From: a virus | Lineage: Duplodnaviria > Heunggongvirae > Uroviricota > Caudoviricetes | Length of the DNA: 29,932 nucleotides | Direction: 5' to 3' (one strand) | Virus record (IMG/VR): IMGVR_UViG_640753024_000007 | Coordinates: 1 to 29,932 of that record | Shown here: positions 3,973 through 29,932 of the stretch, piece by piece | Position numbering within the stretch: the stretch's first letter is position 1 | How the letters are laid out: each line of letters begins with the position of its first letter | The notes under the pieces: model-generated | Told to the model about the DNA's origin: nothing | What the model saw: only the letters and a program-made list of their open reading frames with translations | The model's database searches: none | Program-made: the position numbers and the translations under genes

Positions 3973-4176
3973 TTACGGCGCTGTTTTTAATCCTGCCGGG
4001 ATTTCGTTATTGTCCATGTGAATAACTTTATCGACCGGATAACAGTTGCCGGGAATTTTCTGTTCCGCTGCGGCAGCCATGCATTCTTTCATTGAGTTGT
4101 ACATGCCGGTGATTGCATCAAGCGACTCACCAGTATTGAGATGTACAGTCAGAATGAGTACGAATAATGTGTTCAT
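3973..4176 (-). CDS. Small hypothetical protein with N-terminal hydrophobic (signal-like) segment
   Basis: GGAGA Shine-Dalgarno 6 nt before the ATG at 4176; ATGA overlap with the stop of the upstream DicB-like gene; hydrophobic N-terminus LFVLILTVHL. Confidence 0.5.
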   Translation of the reverse strand: MNTLFVLILTVHLNTGESLDAITGMYNSMKECMAAAAEQKIPGNCYPVDKVIHMDNNEIPAGLKTAP

Positions 4177-4361
4177 CGCCACTCTCCGAAAATACCGAGT
4201 TTAAGAAGGGCAATTCTGGAGAGTATGGAATTGTCATTCAGCAGGTAGGGTTCATATTTTCTCATATTGATTGCATCCTCGGTGAAATCCCTGTTACTGA
4301 GCAGAACACCAATATTAAAGCACCCGTCAGACGTATTAACGTTTGGTAGTGACGTTTCCAT
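4173..4361 (-). CDS. dicB: Cell division inhibitor DicB homolog
   Basis: 62-aa ORF METSLPNVNTSDGCFNIGVLLSNRDFTEDAIN... strongly resembles my recollection of E. coli DicB (62 aa, MKTLLPNVNTSEGCFEIGV...FTEDAIN); GAGGA RBS. Confidence 0.75.
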   Translation of the reverse strand: METSLPNVNTSDGCFNIGVLLSNRDFTEDAINMRKYEPYLLNDNSILSRIALLKLGIFGEWR

Positions 4362-4371
4362 TATCGCGTCC

Positions 4372-4929
4372 TCAACAATGAATTTTTAGCAATTGCTCCA
4401 CAGTCATATTTTTAATTGCGCTCCGGTTTACAAGAGTCCATCCTTGTTTCTCCAGATAAAAGCGGAAAGTATCCAGAGTACAGACGAGAGCGCCGTCAGG
4501 AACGGTTTCGGTGAATTTGATATTGCCGCGTTCGTCGAAGTGAACAACGAGAGTGCGACCATCACCAGGAATTATTTTGTCTGTGGTAGTGGTATTAAGC
4601 TGGTACAACTCTGCCTCCATGCGATCGAATTCAGCGATGTAGGCTTCCTTGAAAGCTGCGGCTTTTTTGCCCGTGAAGCCCATCACCAGGAAAACGAAGC
4701 CGTTTTTGGTGATTTGGTACATAGGGAGTTTGCGCCCGGTTGAGTCGGTGTATTCGCTCACCTTAAAATTAAGGGCAGTGAATTCAGGGGAGCAATCCAG
4801 TAATTTTATTTTTTGAATAACATTGTCGTGGCGTTTGCCAAAGAACTCGGCGATCGCAACAGACGTAGTGACAGCGCGACCATTTTCGATGGTTACGTCA
4901 GGTTGAGAAAGGGTAGGGATAGTAGCCAT
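4372..4929 (-). CDS. Rha-family phage regulatory protein (antirepressor-like)
   Basis: N-terminal signature GRAVTTSVAIAEFFGKRHDNVIQKIK typical of Rha; start chosen at the internal ATG (4929) with a GAGG RBS because the in-frame upstream extension to 5226 contains a terminator hairpin and conserved non-coding-looking elements. Confidence 0.75.
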   Translation of the reverse strand: MATIPTLSQPDVTIENGRAVTTSVAIAEFFGKRHDNVIQKIKLLDCSPEFTALNFKVSEYTDSTGRKLPMYQITKNGFVFLVMGFTGKKAAAFKEAYIAEFDRMEAELYQLNTTTTDKIIPGDGRTLVVHFDERGNIKFTETVPDGALVCTLDTFRFYLEKQGWTLVNRSAIKNMTVEQLLKIHC

Positions 4930-5070
4930 GATAGCAGCCTCGTTAGTGAATTTGATTAACTCACCACCAAGGTTTTCCACGACCATAAGGGTGGTGAGAC
5001 GTACAGGGGTGGAAATACCGGTCACTAACGAACCCGGCCAGCCTTGCGGCTGCCCTGCACGTCCCACCAT

Positions 5071-5098
5071 AATCTGAATGTGGCTGTGCATTACGCAT
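5071..5098 (-). terminator. Putative intrinsic terminator in the leader upstream of rha
   Basis: On the minus strand: ACCGC-gctcag-GCGGT followed by TTTTTTT. Confidence 0.45.
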
Positions 5099-5446
5099 AA
5101 AAAAACCGCCTGAGCGCGGTTATGCGCGTTAGTGAACATCGGGTTTCCACGCCCGGCACCCGTTTTATGAGGTGCAGGTGCACTATAATTCCACCCGTTC
5201 TGGTTTTCAATAGCTACATTCAACATTTTCTCTACCTTTCATCACCTAAGTGAACTTTGTGATGCGGTGCCTGGTGCCTCCAGGTGACGTTAACCAGTTA
5301 ACAATTAACGCCGGATGATTCACCCATAACACTTGTGTTTTTAACTGTTCTGCGTGCGCTGAGCCGCATTCACCGCATCACGAAATTCACTTTTTACTTC
5401 ATAGACCGTGATATGATTTAGCTTTCCACAGTAAAAAGGAGTGTTT

Positions 5447-11625: not shown

Positions 11626-12554
11626 ATAATCACCCCTTTGTTTCCGCTATGCAGTTCTAACAATATATCATTAGAAAGGTTTTTTATCGTGTCATGAAGT
11701 GCTGTTAGATCAGGTATGCCTGTTAATGGGTCGATTTTTAAATCATTATCATCTAACTCTGCAGAAATTCCTTTTTTTAGTATAGTCTCATAATTGAAAA
11801 CGACAGTCCGACTGCCGAGTTGTAAGCTTACTTTTATTGCATCACATTTATCTTCAATAATCTCAATGATGTTTCCTATATTCTTGTTTCTTAAATCCCT
11901 GAAACTTCCGAACATGCCATCGTTTGCTTTTATTATTAAGTCTGTCTTGATGTTTGTTTTGTTTTGACCAAAGGAATCAGCAATGTCTTTTGGTGCTTTA
12001 TATCCTTGAGCCTTAATTTGTTTTAATTCGGAATTGAGAATATATTGAGGGATTTTCTTATGATGTAATGGATTGATTCTTGCTTCGAGTTGAAATTTGT
12101 TTTTTAGATATTCAGTGATAGAATCAGAAAGGACACCTCGGGCAGAAATATTATCGCAAGAGTGGAATGCAATAATTCCTTCTTCAAGGGCGTCTGGTAG
12201 GTATATTAAAATATAACGTTCTTTGAGTGTTACATCATAAGCAGTTGTCCTGTAGTGGATTTTTTTGAGTTTTACATCTTTTATTTCACTGCTTTCTCCA
12301 TATTTCCCAACTTTTATATAACCATATATAATTTTCTTTGAGTTATCAAAGTGAAGTTTAGCGTGTTGTTCCAGAGATATTTTAGTTTTGGATACGCCAA
12401 ACTCGATGGGGGTGTTTTTATATAGAGTAAAATAATCAACAAAAAGTTCATATGCCGTTTTTTTATTACTTAAACCCAATTCATTAAGTTTTTTGCTGGC
12501 TCGACTGCCTTTATGGGTCAATACGCGGAATGAATAGAAATTAACGCTGTGCAT
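11622..12554 (-). CDS. 310-aa soluble protein of unknown function, candidate sensor/partner of the membrane protein
   Basis: AAAGGA RBS; Lys/Ile/Asn-rich, AT-rich composition unlike the flanking prophage genes. Confidence 0.65.
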   Translation of the reverse strand: MHSVNFYSFRVLTHKGSRASKKLNELGLSNKKTAYELFVDYFTLYKNTPIEFGVSKTKISLEQHAKLHFDNSKKIIYGYIKVGKYGESSEIKDVKLKKIHYRTTAYDVTLKERYILIYLPDALEEGIIAFHSCDNISARGVLSDSITEYLKNKFQLEARINPLHHKKIPQYILNSELKQIKAQGYKAPKDIADSFGQNKTNIKTDLIIKANDGMFGSFRDLRNKNIGNIIEIIEDKCDAIKVSLQLGSRTVVFNYETILKKGISAELDDNDLKIDPLTGIPDLTALHDTIKNLSNDILLELHSGNKGVII

Positions 12555-12980
12555 GAAAAGTCCTTTTGAACATATAGGAATATACTAGAACATAAATAGA
12601 TGCAATGCATAAAGGAAAAGCTACCGCAGGGCGCACTCACCCACCGATAGCTCTTAACTGCTTGTTTGTAAAAGATAATACATAAATTTGGGTCTGTGTA
12701 AAGAGGTAAGCATCGTCAGGGCAAGGGAGATGTGTTAGGCAATATTGGTAAAATTTACGTTGAGGATAAAAACGGTTTGCGGGAAAAGGAGAGTTAAGTA
12801 GAATTGCTGCGGGTGCTTGAGGCTATCTGTCTCAGGCATGAACACCAAAAGGCAGATAGAGAAAAGCCCCAGTTAACATTACGCGTCCTGCAAGACGCTT
12901 AACATTAATCTGAGGCCCAATCTATGTCTCACAAATGTAGGTTAGCCTCTTACGTGCCGAAAGGCAAGGAGAAGCAGGCT

Positions 12981-13136
12981 ATGAAGCAGCAAAAGGCGAT
13001 GTTAATCGCCCTGATCGTCATCTGTTTAACCGTCATAGTGACGGCACTGGTAACGAGGAAAGACCTCTGCGAGGTACGAATCCGAACCGGCCAGACGGAG
13101 GTCGCTGTCTTCGCAGCTTACGAACCTGAGGAGTAA
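12981..13136 (+). CDS. hokD: Hok/Gef-family type I toxin
   Basis: MKQQKAMLIALIVICLTVIVTALVTRKDLCEVRIRTGQTEVAVFAAYEPEE matches the Hok family and the HokD/RelF sequence as I recall it; AGGAGA RBS; an in-frame upstream extension from 12924 occupies the mok position. Confidence 0.85.
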   Translation: MKQQKAMLIALIVICLTVIVTALVTRKDLCEVRIRTGQTEVAVFAAYEPEE

Positions 13137-16058: not shown

Positions 16059-16105
16059 ATCGCATACATTTTATGTAAATGTGATATTTTGCCGTATAGT
16101 GTGTA

Positions 16106-16130
16106 AACCCGCTTAAATGCGGGTTTTTTG
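16106..16130 (+). terminator. Intrinsic terminator downstream of Q
   Basis: CCCGC-ttaaat-GCGGG followed by TTTTTT. Confidence 0.7.
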
Positions 16131-16202
16131 CTTAACTCTGTGGACCTTTTTATCTGTAGTTGTAAGATATGGATATTCTTACAATTTAGGTCGGTGAGCT
16201 TA

Positions 16203-16967
16203 ATGGAAGAACAGCACGGTAATTACTTTATAAAACGAATTCAGTTGATTGGAAGAGGTGCATTTGGCTTTGTTGAACACGTTAAGGTTTACAACCTCAA
16301 CAAGGGTGAATGTGGGGATTATGCTAGAAAGGTTTTAGCCCCCGAAAAACCAGAGCTTTTGGCGCAAATAGAGCAGTTTAGAAGGCGTTTTAAAAGGGAG
16401 GTCGTGTATCAATCACATTGCGTACATAGCAATATTGTTCCTATTTATTTGTGCGATTTGTTTGCCGAGAATCCATGGTTCATTATGGATAAAGCAGAAT
16501 GTGATCTTGAGCACGAAATAACGAACAACCTTCTTACAACAGATCAAAAAATTTCAATAGTGAAAATGGTATTAGATGGTGTAGCTCACATCCATGCGAA
16601 AGGCTATTTACACAGAGATATAAAACCATTTAATGTCTTGCGATTTAGCGACGGAACATACAAGGTGTCTGATTTTGGTCTGGTAAAAGATACAAATCCC
16701 GAAGGGGATACCACTAAATTGACCGAGATCGGTACCCGTATGGGAAGTACAAGATATATGGCTCCCGAGATTTTATATAATGCCGAGTATTCAGTTAAGA
16801 CTGATGTTTATGCGGTGGGGCGGTTAATTGAGGACTTAAATTTAGATGATAAAAAAATAAAGCCTATCATAGCGAAGTGTACCAGGATGGATAAAGATGA
16901 TAGATATCAGACAATAGATGATGTGGCGTTTGATTTTGTGCATTCTTTTTTAAGGAGTGAGTCATGA
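16203..16967 (+). CDS. Hanks-type Ser/Thr protein kinase (kinase domain only)
   Basis: Gly-loop GRGAFGFV, beta3 Lys in YARKVL, catalytic loop HRDIKPFN, DFG, APE; AT-rich. Confidence 0.85.
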   Translation: MEEQHGNYFIKRIQLIGRGAFGFVEHVKVYNLNKGECGDYARKVLAPEKPELLAQIEQFRRRFKREVVYQSHCVHSNIVPIYLCDLFAENPWFIMDKAECDLEHEITNNLLTTDQKISIVKMVLDGVAHIHAKGYLHRDIKPFNVLRFSDGTYKVSDFGLVKDTNPEGDTTKLTEIGTRMGSTRYMAPEILYNAEYSVKTDVYAVGRLIEDLNLDDKKIKPIIAKCTRMDKDDRYQTIDDVAFDFVHSFLRSES

Positions 16968-17707
16968 TTCAGCTGATAGCGACTTCATCATTCTCGTATC
17001 CAAAAGAACCAGGTAGGGTCAACGAAGATTCATTGCTTCCTCCCAAAATTGTAGGGGATGGCATCTTATTTGCCGTAGCTGATGGTGTAGGTTCATACAC
17101 TGGTGCCAGTCAGGCTTCATCAATGGCAATTGCTGAGCTTTCAGCATTGACAAGCTTATCTTTTGACACAGTTCCGGATGTATTTGATGAAGTTAAGCGA
17201 AAGGTTATGTCGTTAGCTGATGTTAATGATGAGTTCGATAAAGCTGCTACTACACTTACGTTTTGTTATGTTTGTGATAGCGGAATTATTATTGGTCATA
17301 TTGGTGATTGTCGTTTGTATTGCATTGGAGAGAAGAAAGCATACCAATTGACGAAGGACGATACCAGGCATCAGATGCTAATTGATCAGAATATTTTTAA
17401 ACCCAGAGATTTGAAGGATAAACCGGGCAAAAATATCTTAACGACGGCTATAGCCTCAAATGTTGATATGGAATACGACTGTGATTTTATCACATGGAAA
17501 GATTTACCTAGTATTAACGGGGTATATCATCTGTGTATCATGTCTGATGGGGTTCATAACGTTTGGGAAAAACGCCCCAGATTTACATCAAATACGATGA
17601 GTAATAGTCAGAAGTTTTCTAATGGCATTTTGCGTCGTATAGAGAGAGCCGGACCTGATGATGACTTTTCTTTAGTAAGTATAATGGTGCGTGTGACGTC
17701 AGATTAG
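16964..17707 (+). CDS. PP2C-family (PPM) Ser/Thr phosphatase
   Basis: ATGA overlap with the kinase stop; metal-binding motifs NEDS, AVADGVGS, GDCR and SDGV. Confidence 0.8.
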   Translation: MIQLIATSSFSYPKEPGRVNEDSLLPPKIVGDGILFAVADGVGSYTGASQASSMAIAELSALTSLSFDTVPDVFDEVKRKVMSLADVNDEFDKAATTLTFCYVCDSGIIIGHIGDCRLYCIGEKKAYQLTKDDTRHQMLIDQNIFKPRDLKDKPGKNILTTAIASNVDMEYDCDFITWKDLPSINGVYHLCIMSDGVHNVWEKRPRFTSNTMSNSQKFSNGILRRIERAGPDDDFSLVSIMVRVTSD

Positions 17708-17926
17708 TTGTATAAACTCAGTAGGGAATGCTAATTTCACATACAACATAGTTAAAGAAAACTTAATTTTAATGTAAAAAGGCTGCCCTCAGGCGGTCTT
17801 TTTATGCTCGAAAATTGATGCAGTACGTTAAACGCGCTGGTGGTTGCGAATACCGTTTTTTCAGCTTGCTGGCTTTTTAGACAAGAGTTATTGGTATGTC
17901 ACGTTAACCAGAAAAGGGAAAAAGAC

Positions 17927-19487: not shown

Positions 19488-19563
<76 letters not shown>

Positions 19564-19566
19564 TAT

Positions 19567-19641
<75 letters not shown>

Positions 19642-20821: not shown

Positions 20822-21172
20822 ATGTCTGAACCCTTATCCGGTTCCGGCACAGCTGCTGCGCTCGGTGGGGCGACTGTTTTCGGGCTGTTTACCGGAACGG
20901 ATTTCGGGATTGTGTTTGGCGCATTTGCGGGGGCGTTGTTTGTTGCAACGATACCGCAGGCGCTTTCAGCATGGCGGGTGAAGGGGCTGCTGCATCACGG
21001 TCTGAAACTGAACCGTCTGGCTGAACGGGCGGCGCAGGATCTGTCATTCATGGAGCCGCCTCCCGCGCAGCCGGAAGAAAAAATCAGTTTAAGTATGCCG
21101 GGCGCAAAAGCACCGGAGACACCCCGTAAGAAAATACCGCTGCATATGAGGCTTGCAGGAGTGAGACGATGA
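20822..21172 (+). CDS. Hypothetical protein (117 aa) with N-terminal glycine-zipper hydrophobic segment; translationally coupled to gpW
   Basis: AGGAGA RBS; ATGA overlap with the W-like gene; occupies the position where lambda terminase large subunit would end. Confidence 0.5.
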   Translation: MSEPLSGSGTAAALGGATVFGLFTGTDFGIVFGAFAGALFVATIPQALSAWRVKGLLHHGLKLNRLAERAAQDLSFMEPPPAQPEEKISLSMPGAKAPETPRKKIPLHMRLAGVRR

Positions 21173-27963: not shown

Positions 27964-28754
27964 TTAACTTTGACTCTCAGTGTGTTTTTGTAACCATTTT
28001 TTTATTATGGTATTTACTTCTTTTGCATGTGTGACATTCAATGCATGATTGGCGTCAGGTATAATCGCAAGCTCAGAGTGCGGGATCATTTTGTGCATTT
28101 CAAGAGCTTTCTCCGGTGGTATTCCTGTATCGACGGATCCATGAAGAATCAGGGTGGGCGCTTTGATCGTATGAACTTTATCTGAAATATCGTCTCGCTC
28201 CAGCATTGCATTCATAGCTGGTTTGATGTTTTCAGGTTTATGACGTAGCCATACTTGTCTCCATATCTCTGCTTCAGAGATATTCTTTCCAAAGAAAACG
28301 GGTAATAATGAGGATATTATCTCTTCTTTTATGAGTGAGTTATGCCATCCATTACATAGTTCCATATAACTGGATGCAATTTCTGGCGGGTCCTGCTCGA
28401 CCTGAGTTGCCATAAGGATTAGTCCTGACAAACGCTCTGGATGTGACAGGGCAAATCGTAATGATATATACCCCCCCATCGACATCCCCCCCCTAAAATA
28501 AACTTATCCAGTTGTAGTGAGTCTGCGACGTTTAAAATGTCATCAACGATGTCATAGAGCGAGAATGGCTCAGTTTTTTCGGAGGGGGCATCGAAACCCC
28601 GAACATTAATGCAAACAACTCTATGTTTTTCTTTTAGTTCGTCAAACTGGTATTTGAACATTTCATTATTCATGAAAAATCCATGAACGAATATGGTAGG
28701 GGGATTGTTTTTATTTGTTTCAGTGTATCCAGAGTCAGTAAACGTAAAATTCAT
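27964..28754 (-). pseudogene. Alpha/beta-fold hydrolase interrupted by a frameshift in a poly-G tract at the nucleophile elbow
   Basis: Two overlapping minus-strand ORFs (28419..28754 N-part, 27964..28485 C-part); G-M-S-M-G-G nucleophile motif, HGSVD and ANHAL present; frames joined by changing the 8-G run at 28486-28493 to 9 or 6. Confidence 0.7.
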
Positions 28755-28889
28755 GAGTACTCCGTTATTTAGACAGTTATGTTGTACATTTGACTAATTA
28801 TAGCGAAGAGCTTTATTGACCTGCTGAACAGAAATCCACTTGTCAAAAACCTTCGAAGTTTATCTACCAAGATGGAGATAATCTTGTCA

Positions 28890-29188
28890 AGTATTCGTTA
28901 GGGCATAAAAGCATGGGTTTAATAGTAAATCTAAGACTTTTACGTGCGACAACACGCCTCATTCGTGTTGTGTTTTGTCGCAGTTTGTTCTTAAATTCTC
29001 GCAAATCATTTCCCTCTAATTTGAAGTAGTGCCTCCCACAAACAAACCGCTCAGAGTTACGGGTGTAATTGACTCTGATGTTGTTGATCTTGGCACCTAA
29101 AGCTGATCCAAAAGTTCGGTGATGATAACAGGAATCTGGTTATGGATGAGCGGGGATATGGTTTCAACAGAGATTTGAGTTGTCATAA
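28890..29188 (-). pseudogene. Degraded duplicate of the antirepressor N-terminus
   Basis: MTTQISVETISPLIHNQIPVIITELLDQL then stop, continuing out of frame as ...RFVCGRHYFKLEGNDLREFKNKL; parallels the N-terminus of the intact gene at 29372..29932. Confidence 0.6.
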
Positions 29189-29371
29189 TGACGTCCTCTA
29201 GTGGTTTCTAAACTTAAACTATCACCACCGTCAGGTTCCAATCATCGGGTGGTGAGACGCACAGGGTTGGAACTACCGGGAAACCGACCGACGAGCTTTT
29301 CAGCTCCCCCATGCGCCCCACAATAATTCATATGTGCGCGTGCATACGAGAAAAAACACTTGTTATATCTG

Positions 29372-29932
29372 CTAAAGCTGCATCAGCCTTTCCACCAGTT
29401 GTTCTTTACGGGCAACGAGCCAGCCGTGTTGCTCCAGATAAAATTTAAACCGTTCCAGAGTGCATACCATCGCATCGGCGGGGACTTTTTCTGTGAACTC
29501 TACCTGACCGTGTTTATCAAAGTGGATCAGTAATGCGCATCCATCATTTGGGGTGGGTGAGTTTTGTGTTGCTGGTGGTTGTTTTTGGCTGAAATAACAG
29601 TCTTCCAGTTTTTCGAACACTTCCCATGCCTGATCGGTTTCGAGCATTTTGGCATGGCGGGCTGCGCCACGTTCTGTCCAGAGGATAAGGGAACGGGCAT
29701 TTTTACCAACTAACCCGATTGTTTCAGGTCTGTTCTTAAACTCGCGTAATTCGTTTTTTTCAATTTTAAAGTAATGCTTTCCTACCACGAATCGCGTCGT
29801 GTTGTTCCGAAAGTTATCAGAAATGTTTTTGATTTTTGTTCCGTATAACTGCGCCAGAAGTTCAGTTGTAATAACGGGGACCTGGTTGTGGGTGATTGCA
29901 GGAAGAGTGTCGACAGAAATTTGAGTGGGCAT
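29372..29932 (-). CDS. Phage antirepressor (AntA/KilA-N-type N-terminal domain; C-terminal domain shared with the Rha protein at 4372..4929)
   Basis: 186-aa ORF whose ATG is the last codon in the window (true start could lie beyond it); C-terminal FTEKVPADAMVCTLERFKFYLEQHGW parallels the Rha C-terminus FTETVPDGALVCTLDTFRFYLEKQGW. Confidence 0.7.
   Translation of the reverse strand: MPTQISVDTLPAITHNQVPVITTELLAQLYGTKIKNISDNFRNNTTRFVVGKHYFKIEKNELREFKNRPETIGLVGKNARSLILWTERGAARHAKMLETDQAWEVFEKLEDCYFSQKQPPATQNSPTPNDGCALLIHFDKHGQVEFTEKVPADAMVCTLERFKFYLEQHGWLVARKEQLVERLMQL

What the first reader, a model, noticed from the sequence alone, without database searches (positions are those of the whole stretch)
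28890..29345. Degraded tandem duplicate of the antirepressor N-terminus, and Rha/Ant proteins sharing a C-terminal domain
Downstream of the intact antirepressor (29372-29932) lies a frameshifted partial copy of its N-terminal domain, preceded by the conserved leader element described above. The intact antirepressor and the Rha protein 25 kb away share a C-terminal module while having unrelated N-terminal DNA-binding domains (KilA-N/AntA-type versus Rha), pointing to domain shuffling among antirepressors within one prophage.
Basis: seen in the sequence. Interest (0 to 1): 0.45.

Follow-up and report, generated by a model that had tools for sequence, protein, structure and literature searches.

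The report
Decayed second antirepressor cassette with C4 RNA
Next to an intact prophage antirepressor gene lies the broken, truncated remnant of a second antirepressor cassette that still carries its small regulatory RNA. This is an ordinary product of the known module-swapping among phage antirepressor genes.

Summary
Window 28985-29186 (minus strand) holds the first 68 codons of an ORF6N antirepressor gene. It has a 1-nt deletion after codon 30 and ends inside the domain. RefSeq already annotates it as a frameshifted, C-terminally truncated pseudogene.

The "leader element" (29245-29328) is a C4 antisense RNA (Rfam RF01695, 58 bits) with its two downstream target boxes.

The intact neighbour (29372-29932) is a full-length homologue of Gifsy-1 AnrP (68.6% identity). 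Its own promoter, isrK and C4 leader lie just beyond the window end.

The pseudogene is not a recent copy of that neighbour. It is 64% identical to it at the nucleotide level, against 81% to ORF6N genes in the nin region of other E. coli prophages. It is a second, diverged cassette cut off by an alpha/beta-hydrolase moron.

The shared C-terminal module of the ORF6N and Rha proteins is real (48% identity, E 2e-19). It is about 55 aa, has no Pfam family and matches no solved fold. Elsewhere it is fused to ORF6N, Rha, AntA or P22_AR_N domains, or stands alone. The exchange happened in the wider prophage pool, not between these two genes (58% nt identity).

All of this fits the described "Bro network" and the IsrK/C4 control system, so interest is low.

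The parts
29372..29932 (-). Intact AnrP-like antirepressor gene, 186 aa. The ORF6N domain covers residues 13-96 (29645-29896), a disordered linker covers residues 117-129, and the C-terminal module covers residues 128-186 (29375-29551). Its promoter, isrK and C4 leader lie just past the window end.
   Evidence: Pfam ORF6N 75.6 bits. phrog_2379 'anti-repressor', E 3e-93. 68.6% identity over 98% of its length to Gifsy-1 STM2616/AnrP. AF2 model. Upstream promoter, isrK and C4 in L001 at 7451-7226.
29329..29371 (-). Spacer between the stop codon of the intact gene and C4 copy 2. It holds only the T-run remnant (29351-29359) of an isrK terminator, which marks the left boundary of the second cassette. 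There is no isrK (a1/b1) element and no promoter-like site.
   Evidence: Alignment to the L003 and L004 cassettes begins at GTGTTTTTT. No isrK hit. No promoter-like site.
29245..29328 (-). C4 antisense RNA, copy 2. This is the 'conserved leader element'.
   Evidence: Rfam RF01695, 58.4 bits, E 5e-9. It differs from the L003 C4 by two substitutions: one gives a G-U wobble in hairpin 2, the other a mismatch at the base of the outer stem. MFE is -35.8 against -44.9 kcal/mol.
29187..29244 (-). Translation-control leader. It contains box b2 ATTGGAAC (29235-29242), box a2 GAAACC (29203-29208), Shine-Dalgarno GAGGA (29194-29198) and a 6-nt insertion relative to its relatives.
   Evidence: The boxes are complementary to the single-stranded region and the hairpin-2 loop of C4, and they co-vary across six cassettes.
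28985..29186 (-). ORF6N antirepressor pseudogene: codons 1-68, a 1-nt deletion (TAT to TA-) at about 29098 giving a stop at 29097-29099, then truncation inside the ORF6N domain.
   Evidence: PGAP pseudogene at L001 6222-6427, which equals window 28981-29186.
27964..28984 (-). Alpha/beta-hydrolase moron with its upstream region. Its junction truncates the pseudogene. The hydrolase gene is itself frameshifted in this window.
   Evidence: Homology to the APEC O1 and other prophage-end hydrolase modules runs up to about 28976-28982. The gene is an intact 801-bp CDS in strain C8 but is split into two ORFs here.
4372..5226 (-). Rha cassette. It comprises promoter TTGAAA-17-TATAGT (about 5181-5209), isrK (5099-5175), C4 (4987-5074), boxes b2 (4973-4980) and a2 plus SD (4938-4950), a likely short start ATG at 4929, the Rha domain (4615-4869) and the C-terminal module (4375-4569). 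A long 284-aa ORF reads in frame through the RNA genes.
   Evidence: Rfam C4 80.3 bits and isrK 65.9 bits. Pfam Phage_pRha 107.6 bits and Phage_ASH 64.3 bits. Sequence read directly. Target boxes.

Best explanation
The region is the decayed second unit of a tandem pair of 'immunity RNA plus antirepressor' cassettes at the right end of an ompW-integrated lambdoid prophage.

A complete cassette has five parts in order: a constitutive-type promoter; IsrK (a short terminated RNA carrying boxes a1/b1); a C4 antisense RNA; a leader with boxes a2/b2 at the ribosome-binding site; and an antirepressor gene of the Bro network. C4 pairs with a2/b2 and keeps the antirepressor untranslated. Free IsrK pairs with the C4 region and relieves this block. 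The antirepressor then inactivates a prophage repressor.

Unit 1 is complete, and its protein is an AnrP homologue made of ORF6N plus a roughly 55-aa C-terminal module. Unit 2 lacks a promoter and IsrK. It keeps C4, both target boxes and the start codon. Its ORF6N gene is dead: it is frameshifted and cut off after codon 68 where an alpha/beta-hydrolase moron was joined.

Unit 2 derives from a different allele lineage, the nin-region type, and reached this position by recombination between prophage cassettes, probably through the conserved RNA leader.

The C-terminal module shared with the Rha protein is one of the exchangeable segments of this protein network. I infer that it is the effector or partner-binding part common to both proteins. 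That step is not shown.
For: Shown by tool results:
- Cassette anatomy by Rfam in the window and in six related loci.
- Three-way co-variation of the isrK, C4 and leader boxes across four specificities, with cognate duplexes the most stable.
- Pseudogene anatomy.
- Closer relatives elsewhere than next door: 81% against 64% nt identity.
- A sharp junction with the hydrolase module.
- The same structure in four complete E. coli genomes.
- Strain 135 and similar genomes keep only the 5' half of C4 copy 2, so the second unit was eroded independently at least twice.
- Tandem cassettes are intact in Mixta (L042), and one is decayed in Entomohabitans (L022).
- 33 of 40 ORF6N genes from different species have a C4-class RNA directly upstream.
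- The C-terminal module is fused to ORF6N, Rha, AntA or P22_AR_N, or is stand-alone.
- Modules 89-90% identical to the ORF6N one occur on Rha-family fragments.

From the literature:
- IsrK activates orf45/anrP translation, and AnrP induces Gifsy-1 (PMC4825925).
- The Bro network of domain-swapping proteins has embedded CI/C4 and seqA/isrK RNAs (PMC10111431).

Against: - No expression data exist for this locus.
- C4 copy 2 has no promoter of its own, so it depends on read-through from unit 1.
- The role of the C-terminal module is pure inference. It has no Pfam family, no PDB sequence hit and no fold match.
- The target repressor of these proteins was not identified.
- An ancient local duplication followed by divergence and gene conversion from other prophages cannot be formally excluded.
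Confidence: 0.8

Rival explanations
1. Recent local tandem duplication of the intact antirepressor's 5' part with its leader, followed by decay.
For: The two units are adjacent, co-oriented and colinear from the leader T-run through C4, the boxes, the ATG and 205 nt of coding sequence. A true tandem duplication with identical C-terminal parts exists in Mixta L042.
Against: The two units are only 64-69% identical at the nucleotide level. The pseudogene is 81% identical, and its leader 89-91% identical, to nin-region cassettes in other genomes. The hairpin-2 loop specificities differ: TTTCCGTAC in unit 1 against CGGTTTC in unit 2.
Confidence: 0.1
2. The remnant is retained because C4 copy 2 still works. 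On this view it is an orphan immunity RNA made from the 3' UTR of the AnrP-like mRNA. It would either feed back on unit 1, which has the same b' box, or silence incoming or co-resident nin-type antirepressor cassettes, giving P1-style immunity in trans.
For: C4 copy 2 scores above the Rfam gathering threshold. It has only two substitutions against intact relatives, one of them wobble-compatible. Its b' box is identical to that of unit 1, and its a' and b' match L003-type leaders. The coding part is far more damaged than the RNA part.
Against: - The predicted fold is weakened (-35.8 against -44.9 kcal/mol).
- The RNA has no promoter of its own.
- Other lineages have lost its 3' half.
- The four genomes carrying it are nearly identical in this region, so conservation says nothing about selection.
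Confidence: 0.2
3. The fragment encodes a functional small protein: either the 29-aa peptide from 29097-29186 or a re-coded ORF6N fragment.
For: The start codon and Shine-Dalgarno sequence are intact.
Against: The ORF ends after 29 codons, within the N-terminal third of the ORF6N domain. The downstream frame runs into unrelated hydrolase-module DNA. PGAP calls it a pseudogene. No related genome shows it as a distinct intact small gene.
Confidence: 0.03
4. The frameshift is a sequencing or assembly error and the gene is merely truncated.
For: It is a single-base deletion.
Against: The region is 100% identical in the independent complete genomes DS26-1 and ST2350, and strain C8 is also annotated as frameshifted. 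In any case the gene lacks everything after codon 68.
Confidence: 0.02

Closest known systems
Gifsy-1 isrK-orf45-anrP locus (Salmonella; Hershko-Shalev et al. 2016, PMC4825925)
   Same: The order of parts is the same: promoter, IsrK, C4/orf45 region, then an ORF6N protein carrying the same C-terminal module. STM2616 is 68.6% identical to the intact window protein over 98% of its length.
   Different: The window locus sits at the prophage end next to attR (ompW), not after gene Q. It is followed by a second, decayed C4-antirepressor unit rather than by isrJ. The small upstream ORF is not coupled to the start codon here: it stops 45 nt before the ATG.
Phage P1/P7 immI (c4-icd-ant) and P4 immunity (seqA-CI-seqB inside eta)
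   Same: A processed antisense RNA with two short recognition sequences pairs with copies of the boxes upstream and downstream on the same transcript. One downstream box lies at the ribosome-binding site of the antirepressor operon. Rfam C4 and c4-a1b1 hit these loci. In the Rha cassette a long ORF reads through the RNA genes, as P4 eta does.
   Different: There is no icd-like coupled gene. The antirepressor belongs to the ORF6N or Rha families, not to P1 Ant. RNase P processing and Rho-dependent polarity were not tested.
Bro network of domain-swapping phage proteins (Iyer et al. 2002, cited from memory; Williams-lab paper PMC10111431)
   Same: N-terminal ORF6N, Rha, AntA and P22_AR_N domains are combined with interchangeable C-terminal segments, and immunity RNAs are embedded in the same zone.
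   Different: The C-terminal module here has no Pfam family. It is covered only by PHROGs 25059, 340, 2379 and 995.

Membership tests
ORF6N-domain (KilA-N-like) antirepressors / AnrP | Pfam PF10543 match above the gathering score | tested here: met
   The intact gene scores 75.6 bits against a cut-off of 27.8. The restored pseudogene scores 44.8 bits but covers only profile positions 6-62 of 86.
ORF6N-domain (KilA-N-like) antirepressors / AnrP | Full-length homology to the experimentally studied AnrP (Gifsy-1 STM2616), including the C-terminal part | tested here: met
   68.6% identity over residues 1-183 for the intact gene. This cannot apply to the pseudogene, which lacks everything after codon 68.
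ORF6N-domain (KilA-N-like) antirepressors / AnrP | Antirepressor activity (repressor inactivation or prophage induction) | not testable with these tools
   Known only for Gifsy-1 AnrP, from PMC4825925.
C4 antisense RNA system (Rfam RF01695; P1 immI type) | Covariance-model match above the gathering score | tested here: met
   29245-29328 scores 58.4 bits against 45. 4987-5074 scores 80.3 bits. The copy upstream of the intact gene scores 78.9 bits.
C4 antisense RNA system (Rfam RF01695; P1 immI type) | Two downstream boxes (a2/b2) complementary to C4 loops, one at or near the ribosome-binding site | tested here: met
   Present in all three cassettes of this prophage, and they co-vary with C4 in six cassettes.
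C4 antisense RNA system (Rfam RF01695; P1 immI type) | Upstream a1/b1 element (isrK / c4-a1b1) and its own promoter | tested here: not met
   Absent from the pseudogene cassette, where only the terminator T-run remains. Present in the Rha cassette and in the cassette of the intact gene.
C4 antisense RNA system (Rfam RF01695; P1 immI type) | Stable processed RNA that represses antirepressor translation | not testable with these tools
   No expression data were available.
Rha family (PF09669) | Pfam match above the gathering score | tested here: met
   107.6 bits against a cut-off of 29.9, residues 120-204 of the 284-aa ORF.
Recent tandem gene duplicate | The two copies are each other's closest relatives | tested here: not met
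   64% nt and 63% aa identity to the neighbour, against 81% to L003 and L004.
Curated C-terminal antirepressor domains (ANT/KilA-C, P22_AR_C, ORF6C and similar) | Pfam match of the shared C-terminal module | tested here: not met
P4 Eta/Ash-like long ORF (PF10554) | Pfam match, with the ORF reading in frame through the immunity-RNA genes | tested here: met
   64.3 bits against a cut-off of 26, on residues 14-109 of ORF 4372-5226, which overlap isrK and C4. Whether this long form is translated was not tested.

The most novel reading that the evidence does not exclude
The orphan C4 RNA left behind by the dead cassette is still made, from the 3' UTR of the AnrP-like mRNA. It would act in trans as a feedback brake on its own antirepressor, or as cross-immunity against the nin-type antirepressor cassettes of other prophages. 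Separately, the un-curated 55-aa C-terminal module may be the partner-binding part, which would make the ORF6N and Rha proteins of one prophage converge on the same target.
Probability: 0.15. Interest if true: 0.4.

Novelty: new member of a known kind. Interest (0 to 1): 0.15.

Why it matters
The main value is in annotation.
- It shows that the "leader" is a C4/IsrK immunity-RNA system, and that a C4 copy can outlive its gene.
- It flags a small, widely shuffled C-terminal module of antirepressors that no curated domain library covers.
- It illustrates that conserved RNA leaders mark the boundaries at which antirepressor cassettes are exchanged and stacked.

None of this changes the current picture of prophage induction control.

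Tried and rejected
- Sequence search of the PDB with a family profile: no hit.
- hhalign of the ORF6N profile against the Rha N-domain: E 0.3, inconclusive.
- The word-indexed homologue search with the module alone returned mostly fragments. The exhaustive HMMER search was more useful.
- An exact-pattern scan of species-representative genomes for the junction sequence found nothing.
- I first assumed that the 284-aa ORF over isrK/C4 was spurious. I withdrew that because of the P4 eta precedent (PMC10111431).
- I looked for a genome with an intact second gene at this site. None was found among 5,426 complete E. coli genomes.

Full report
**Context**

The last 1,173 bases of the window are 100% identical to E. 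coli DS26-1 (NZ_CP035879.1). There the region is the right end of a lambdoid prophage inserted in ompW, next to yciE and the trp operon. The window as a whole is a roughly 30-kb deletion derivative of that 50.4-kb prophage. Several late-gene blocks and an IS1 are missing. In the complete prophage the Rha gene and the right-end antirepressor are therefore about 44 kb apart, not 25 kb.

**Checking the observation**

The intact gene 29372-29932 (minus strand, 186 aa) carries a Pfam ORF6N domain at residues 13-96 (75.6 bits). It matches PHROG 2379 'anti-repressor' over its full length.

Downstream on the same strand, 29186 to about 28985 aligns with the first 205 nt of that gene. One base is missing after codon 30 (TAT to TA-), which gives a stop at 29097-29099. 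With the base restored, the translation is 63% identical to residues 1-68 of the neighbour (E 2e-30). It hits ORF6N profile positions 6-62 of 86.

Similarity to any ORF6N gene stops at about 28985. From 28982 downwards, the DNA is homologous to an alpha/beta-hydrolase module. That module sits at the ends of other prophages without any antirepressor, for example in APEC O1. The fragment is thus both frameshifted and truncated inside its domain.

RefSeq annotates exactly this pseudogene in DS26-1 and in strain C8. The arrangement occurs in 4 of 5,426 complete E. coli genomes.

**The 'leader element'**

Rfam finds a C4 antisense RNA (RF01695) at 29245-29328 on the minus strand (58.4 bits). It finds a second C4 at 4987-5074, preceded by isrK at 5099-5175, in front of the Rha gene.

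The intact ORF6N gene has the same leader just beyond the window end. It consists of promoter TTGACA-18-TATATT, then isrK, then C4 (78.9 bits).

Six cassettes were compared: three from this prophage and three from other E. coli prophages. In each, the single-stranded stretch after C4 hairpin 2 and the hairpin-2 loop are complementary to two boxes in isrK. They are also complementary to two boxes between C4 and the start codon, the second of which lies at or next to the Shine-Dalgarno sequence. The boxes change together between cassettes:
- GTTCCAA pairs with TTGGAAC.
- GTTCCTAA pairs with TTAGGAAC.
- ACGCCAA pairs with TTGGCGT.
- ATTTCCAC pairs with GTGGAAA.

Cognate duplexes are the most stable. 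This is the P1 c4 / P4 CI design. Rfam's c4-a1b1 family hits the isrK element in Gifsy-1 and other loci.

**Identity of the intact gene**

The best phage hit is Gifsy-1 STM2616, at 68.6% identity over 98% of the protein. STM2616 lies directly after gene Q and is preceded by isrK and C4. This is the isrK-orf45-anrP locus studied by Hershko-Shalev et al. (PMC4825925). In that work the isrK promoter reads through into anrP. IsrK acting in trans switches on orf45/anrP translation. AnrP raises antQ transcription and induces Gifsy-1. The window gene is therefore an AnrP homologue under the same type of control.

**Is the fragment a tandem duplicate?**

The two units are colinear from the terminator T-run through C4, the boxes, the start codon and 205 nt of coding sequence. 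Over that span they are only 69% identical, and 64% in the coding part.

The fragment is 81% identical to ORF6N genes in the nin regions of other E. coli prophages (L003, L004), which carry a P22_AR_C C-terminal domain. Its leader is 89-91% identical to theirs. Its hairpin-2 loop specificity is theirs, not the neighbour's. It is a separate cassette lineage placed behind unit 1.

Its left boundary lies in the T-run of a former isrK terminator (29351-29359). It has neither isrK nor a promoter.

Strain 135 and similar genomes share the first 85 nt after the stop codon, including the 5' half of this C4. Their sequence then diverges into different DNA. The second unit is therefore older than the four-genome group and has been eroded at least twice.

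Stacked cassettes are not unique to this locus:
- Mixta mediterraneensis has two intact isrK-C4-ORF6N units in tandem.
- Entomohabitans has a decayed unit in front of an intact one.
- L003 and L004 have a second Bro-network gene right behind the first.

In 33 of 40 species-representative loci, the ORF6N gene is directly preceded by a C4 or sRNA-Xcc1 hit.

**The shared C-terminal module**

Residues 122-186 of the ORF6N protein align with residues 214-282 of the Rha ORF (48% identity, E 2e-19). No other part of the two proteins aligns.

The module has no Pfam match. It does match PHROGs 25059 and 340, which are small proteins of unknown function.

An exhaustive profile search of 1.84 billion representative proteins found only 38 hits. 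The medium-sized hits carry ORF6N, Rha, AntA or P22_AR_N N-terminal domains. Others are stand-alone proteins of 60-120 aa.

Rha-family fragments exist whose module is 89-90% identical to the ORF6N one. The two copies within the window are only 58% identical at the DNA level. The module is clearly mobile between N-domains, but the exchange did not take place between these two genes.

Strain C8 carries the same module, identical in sequence, on a different ORF6N N-terminal half. This points to breakpoints near the disordered linker at residues 117-129.

The function of the module is unknown. My inference, marked as such, is that it is the partner-binding or oligomerisation part common to both antirepressors.

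**Comparison with what is known**

[quoted passage not shown] Immunity RNAs detectable with the Rfam C4 and isrK models are embedded in it (PMC10111431). The pseudogene is already in RefSeq. The control system is the Gifsy-1/P1/P4 type.

What has not been described, as far as I could find, is limited to three points:
- this particular stacked arrangement;
- the survival of a near-intact C4 behind a dead gene;
- the absence of any curated family for the C-terminal module.

**Verdict**

This is a real feature, correctly spotted. It is better described as a decayed second IsrK/C4-type antirepressor cassette than as a tandem duplicate. It is ordinary in kind.

Noticed in passing
window 4372-5226 (-): A 284-aa ORF, annotated by PGAP as one 'Rha family' protein, reads in frame through the isrK and C4 RNA genes. 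Its N-terminal 100 residues hit Pfam PF10554 Phage_ASH. Its ATG (5226) lies upstream of the cassette's own promoter (TTGAAA-17-TATAGT). It could therefore be translated only from upstream transcripts, like P4 eta. The likely short start is at 4929. Phage_ASH also hits other N-extended ORFs (P0150, P0160).
   Followed up: partly
window 27964-28754 (-): The alpha/beta-fold hydrolase moron is itself frameshifted here into two overlapping ORFs of 111 and 173 aa. It is an intact 801-bp gene in strain C8. This makes a second pseudogene right next to the first.
   Followed up: partly
L005 3474-3542 (E. coli strain 135, same ompW prophage end): The 5' half of C4 copy 2 is joined to about 25 nt that look like the 3' end of ssrA (tmRNA). 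Rfam gives a partial tmRNA match (E 7e-6, below the gathering score). The identity to ssrA is from memory. A DinI-like gene follows. This could be a recombination or integration scar in a tRNA-like RNA gene.
   Followed up: partly
whole window compared with NZ_CP035879.1 794092-844059: The window is colinear with the 50.4-kb DS26-1 prophage but lacks several late-region blocks. The junctions are near 20979, 22500, 23554 and 24567. It also lacks an IS1 (near 12490) and differs over 16092-17819. It is either a defective derivative or a different strain.
   Followed up: partly
window 12811-12986 (+): A sok antitoxin RNA (Rfam RF01794, 120 bits) of a hok/sok-type module lies in the prophage early region.
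   Followed up: no
window 4173-4361 and 5252-5332 (-): The Rha cassette sits between a 5' fragment of dicB and a complete dicB (DS26-1 annotation). It looks as if the cassette was inserted with a short duplication of dicB.
   Followed up: no
L015, L016, L020, L028, L032-L034, L036, L038, L040, L041, L043, L047, L051 (about 2370-2465) and L003 2824-2914: Rfam sRNA-Xcc1 (RF02221) occupies exactly the position of C4 in front of ORF6N or BRO genes in many Enterobacterales. It appears to be the positional equivalent of C4, although Rfam does not place it in the C4 clan.
   Followed up: no
L002 5613-6176 (strain C8): The orthologous intact gene has a different ORF6N N-terminal half but an identical C-terminal module. 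This is an intragenic mosaic with a breakpoint near the linker.
   Followed up: partly
L048 2384-2455 (-): A P22-type sar antisense RNA hit (47 bits) lies on the opposite strand just upstream of an ORF6N gene in Pectobacterium brasiliense. That is a different RNA control solution at the same position.
   Followed up: no
window 19488-19638 (+): Two tRNA genes lie after the DNA methyltransferase gene. They are annotated as tRNA-Thr and tRNA-Gly in DS26-1.
   Followed up: no
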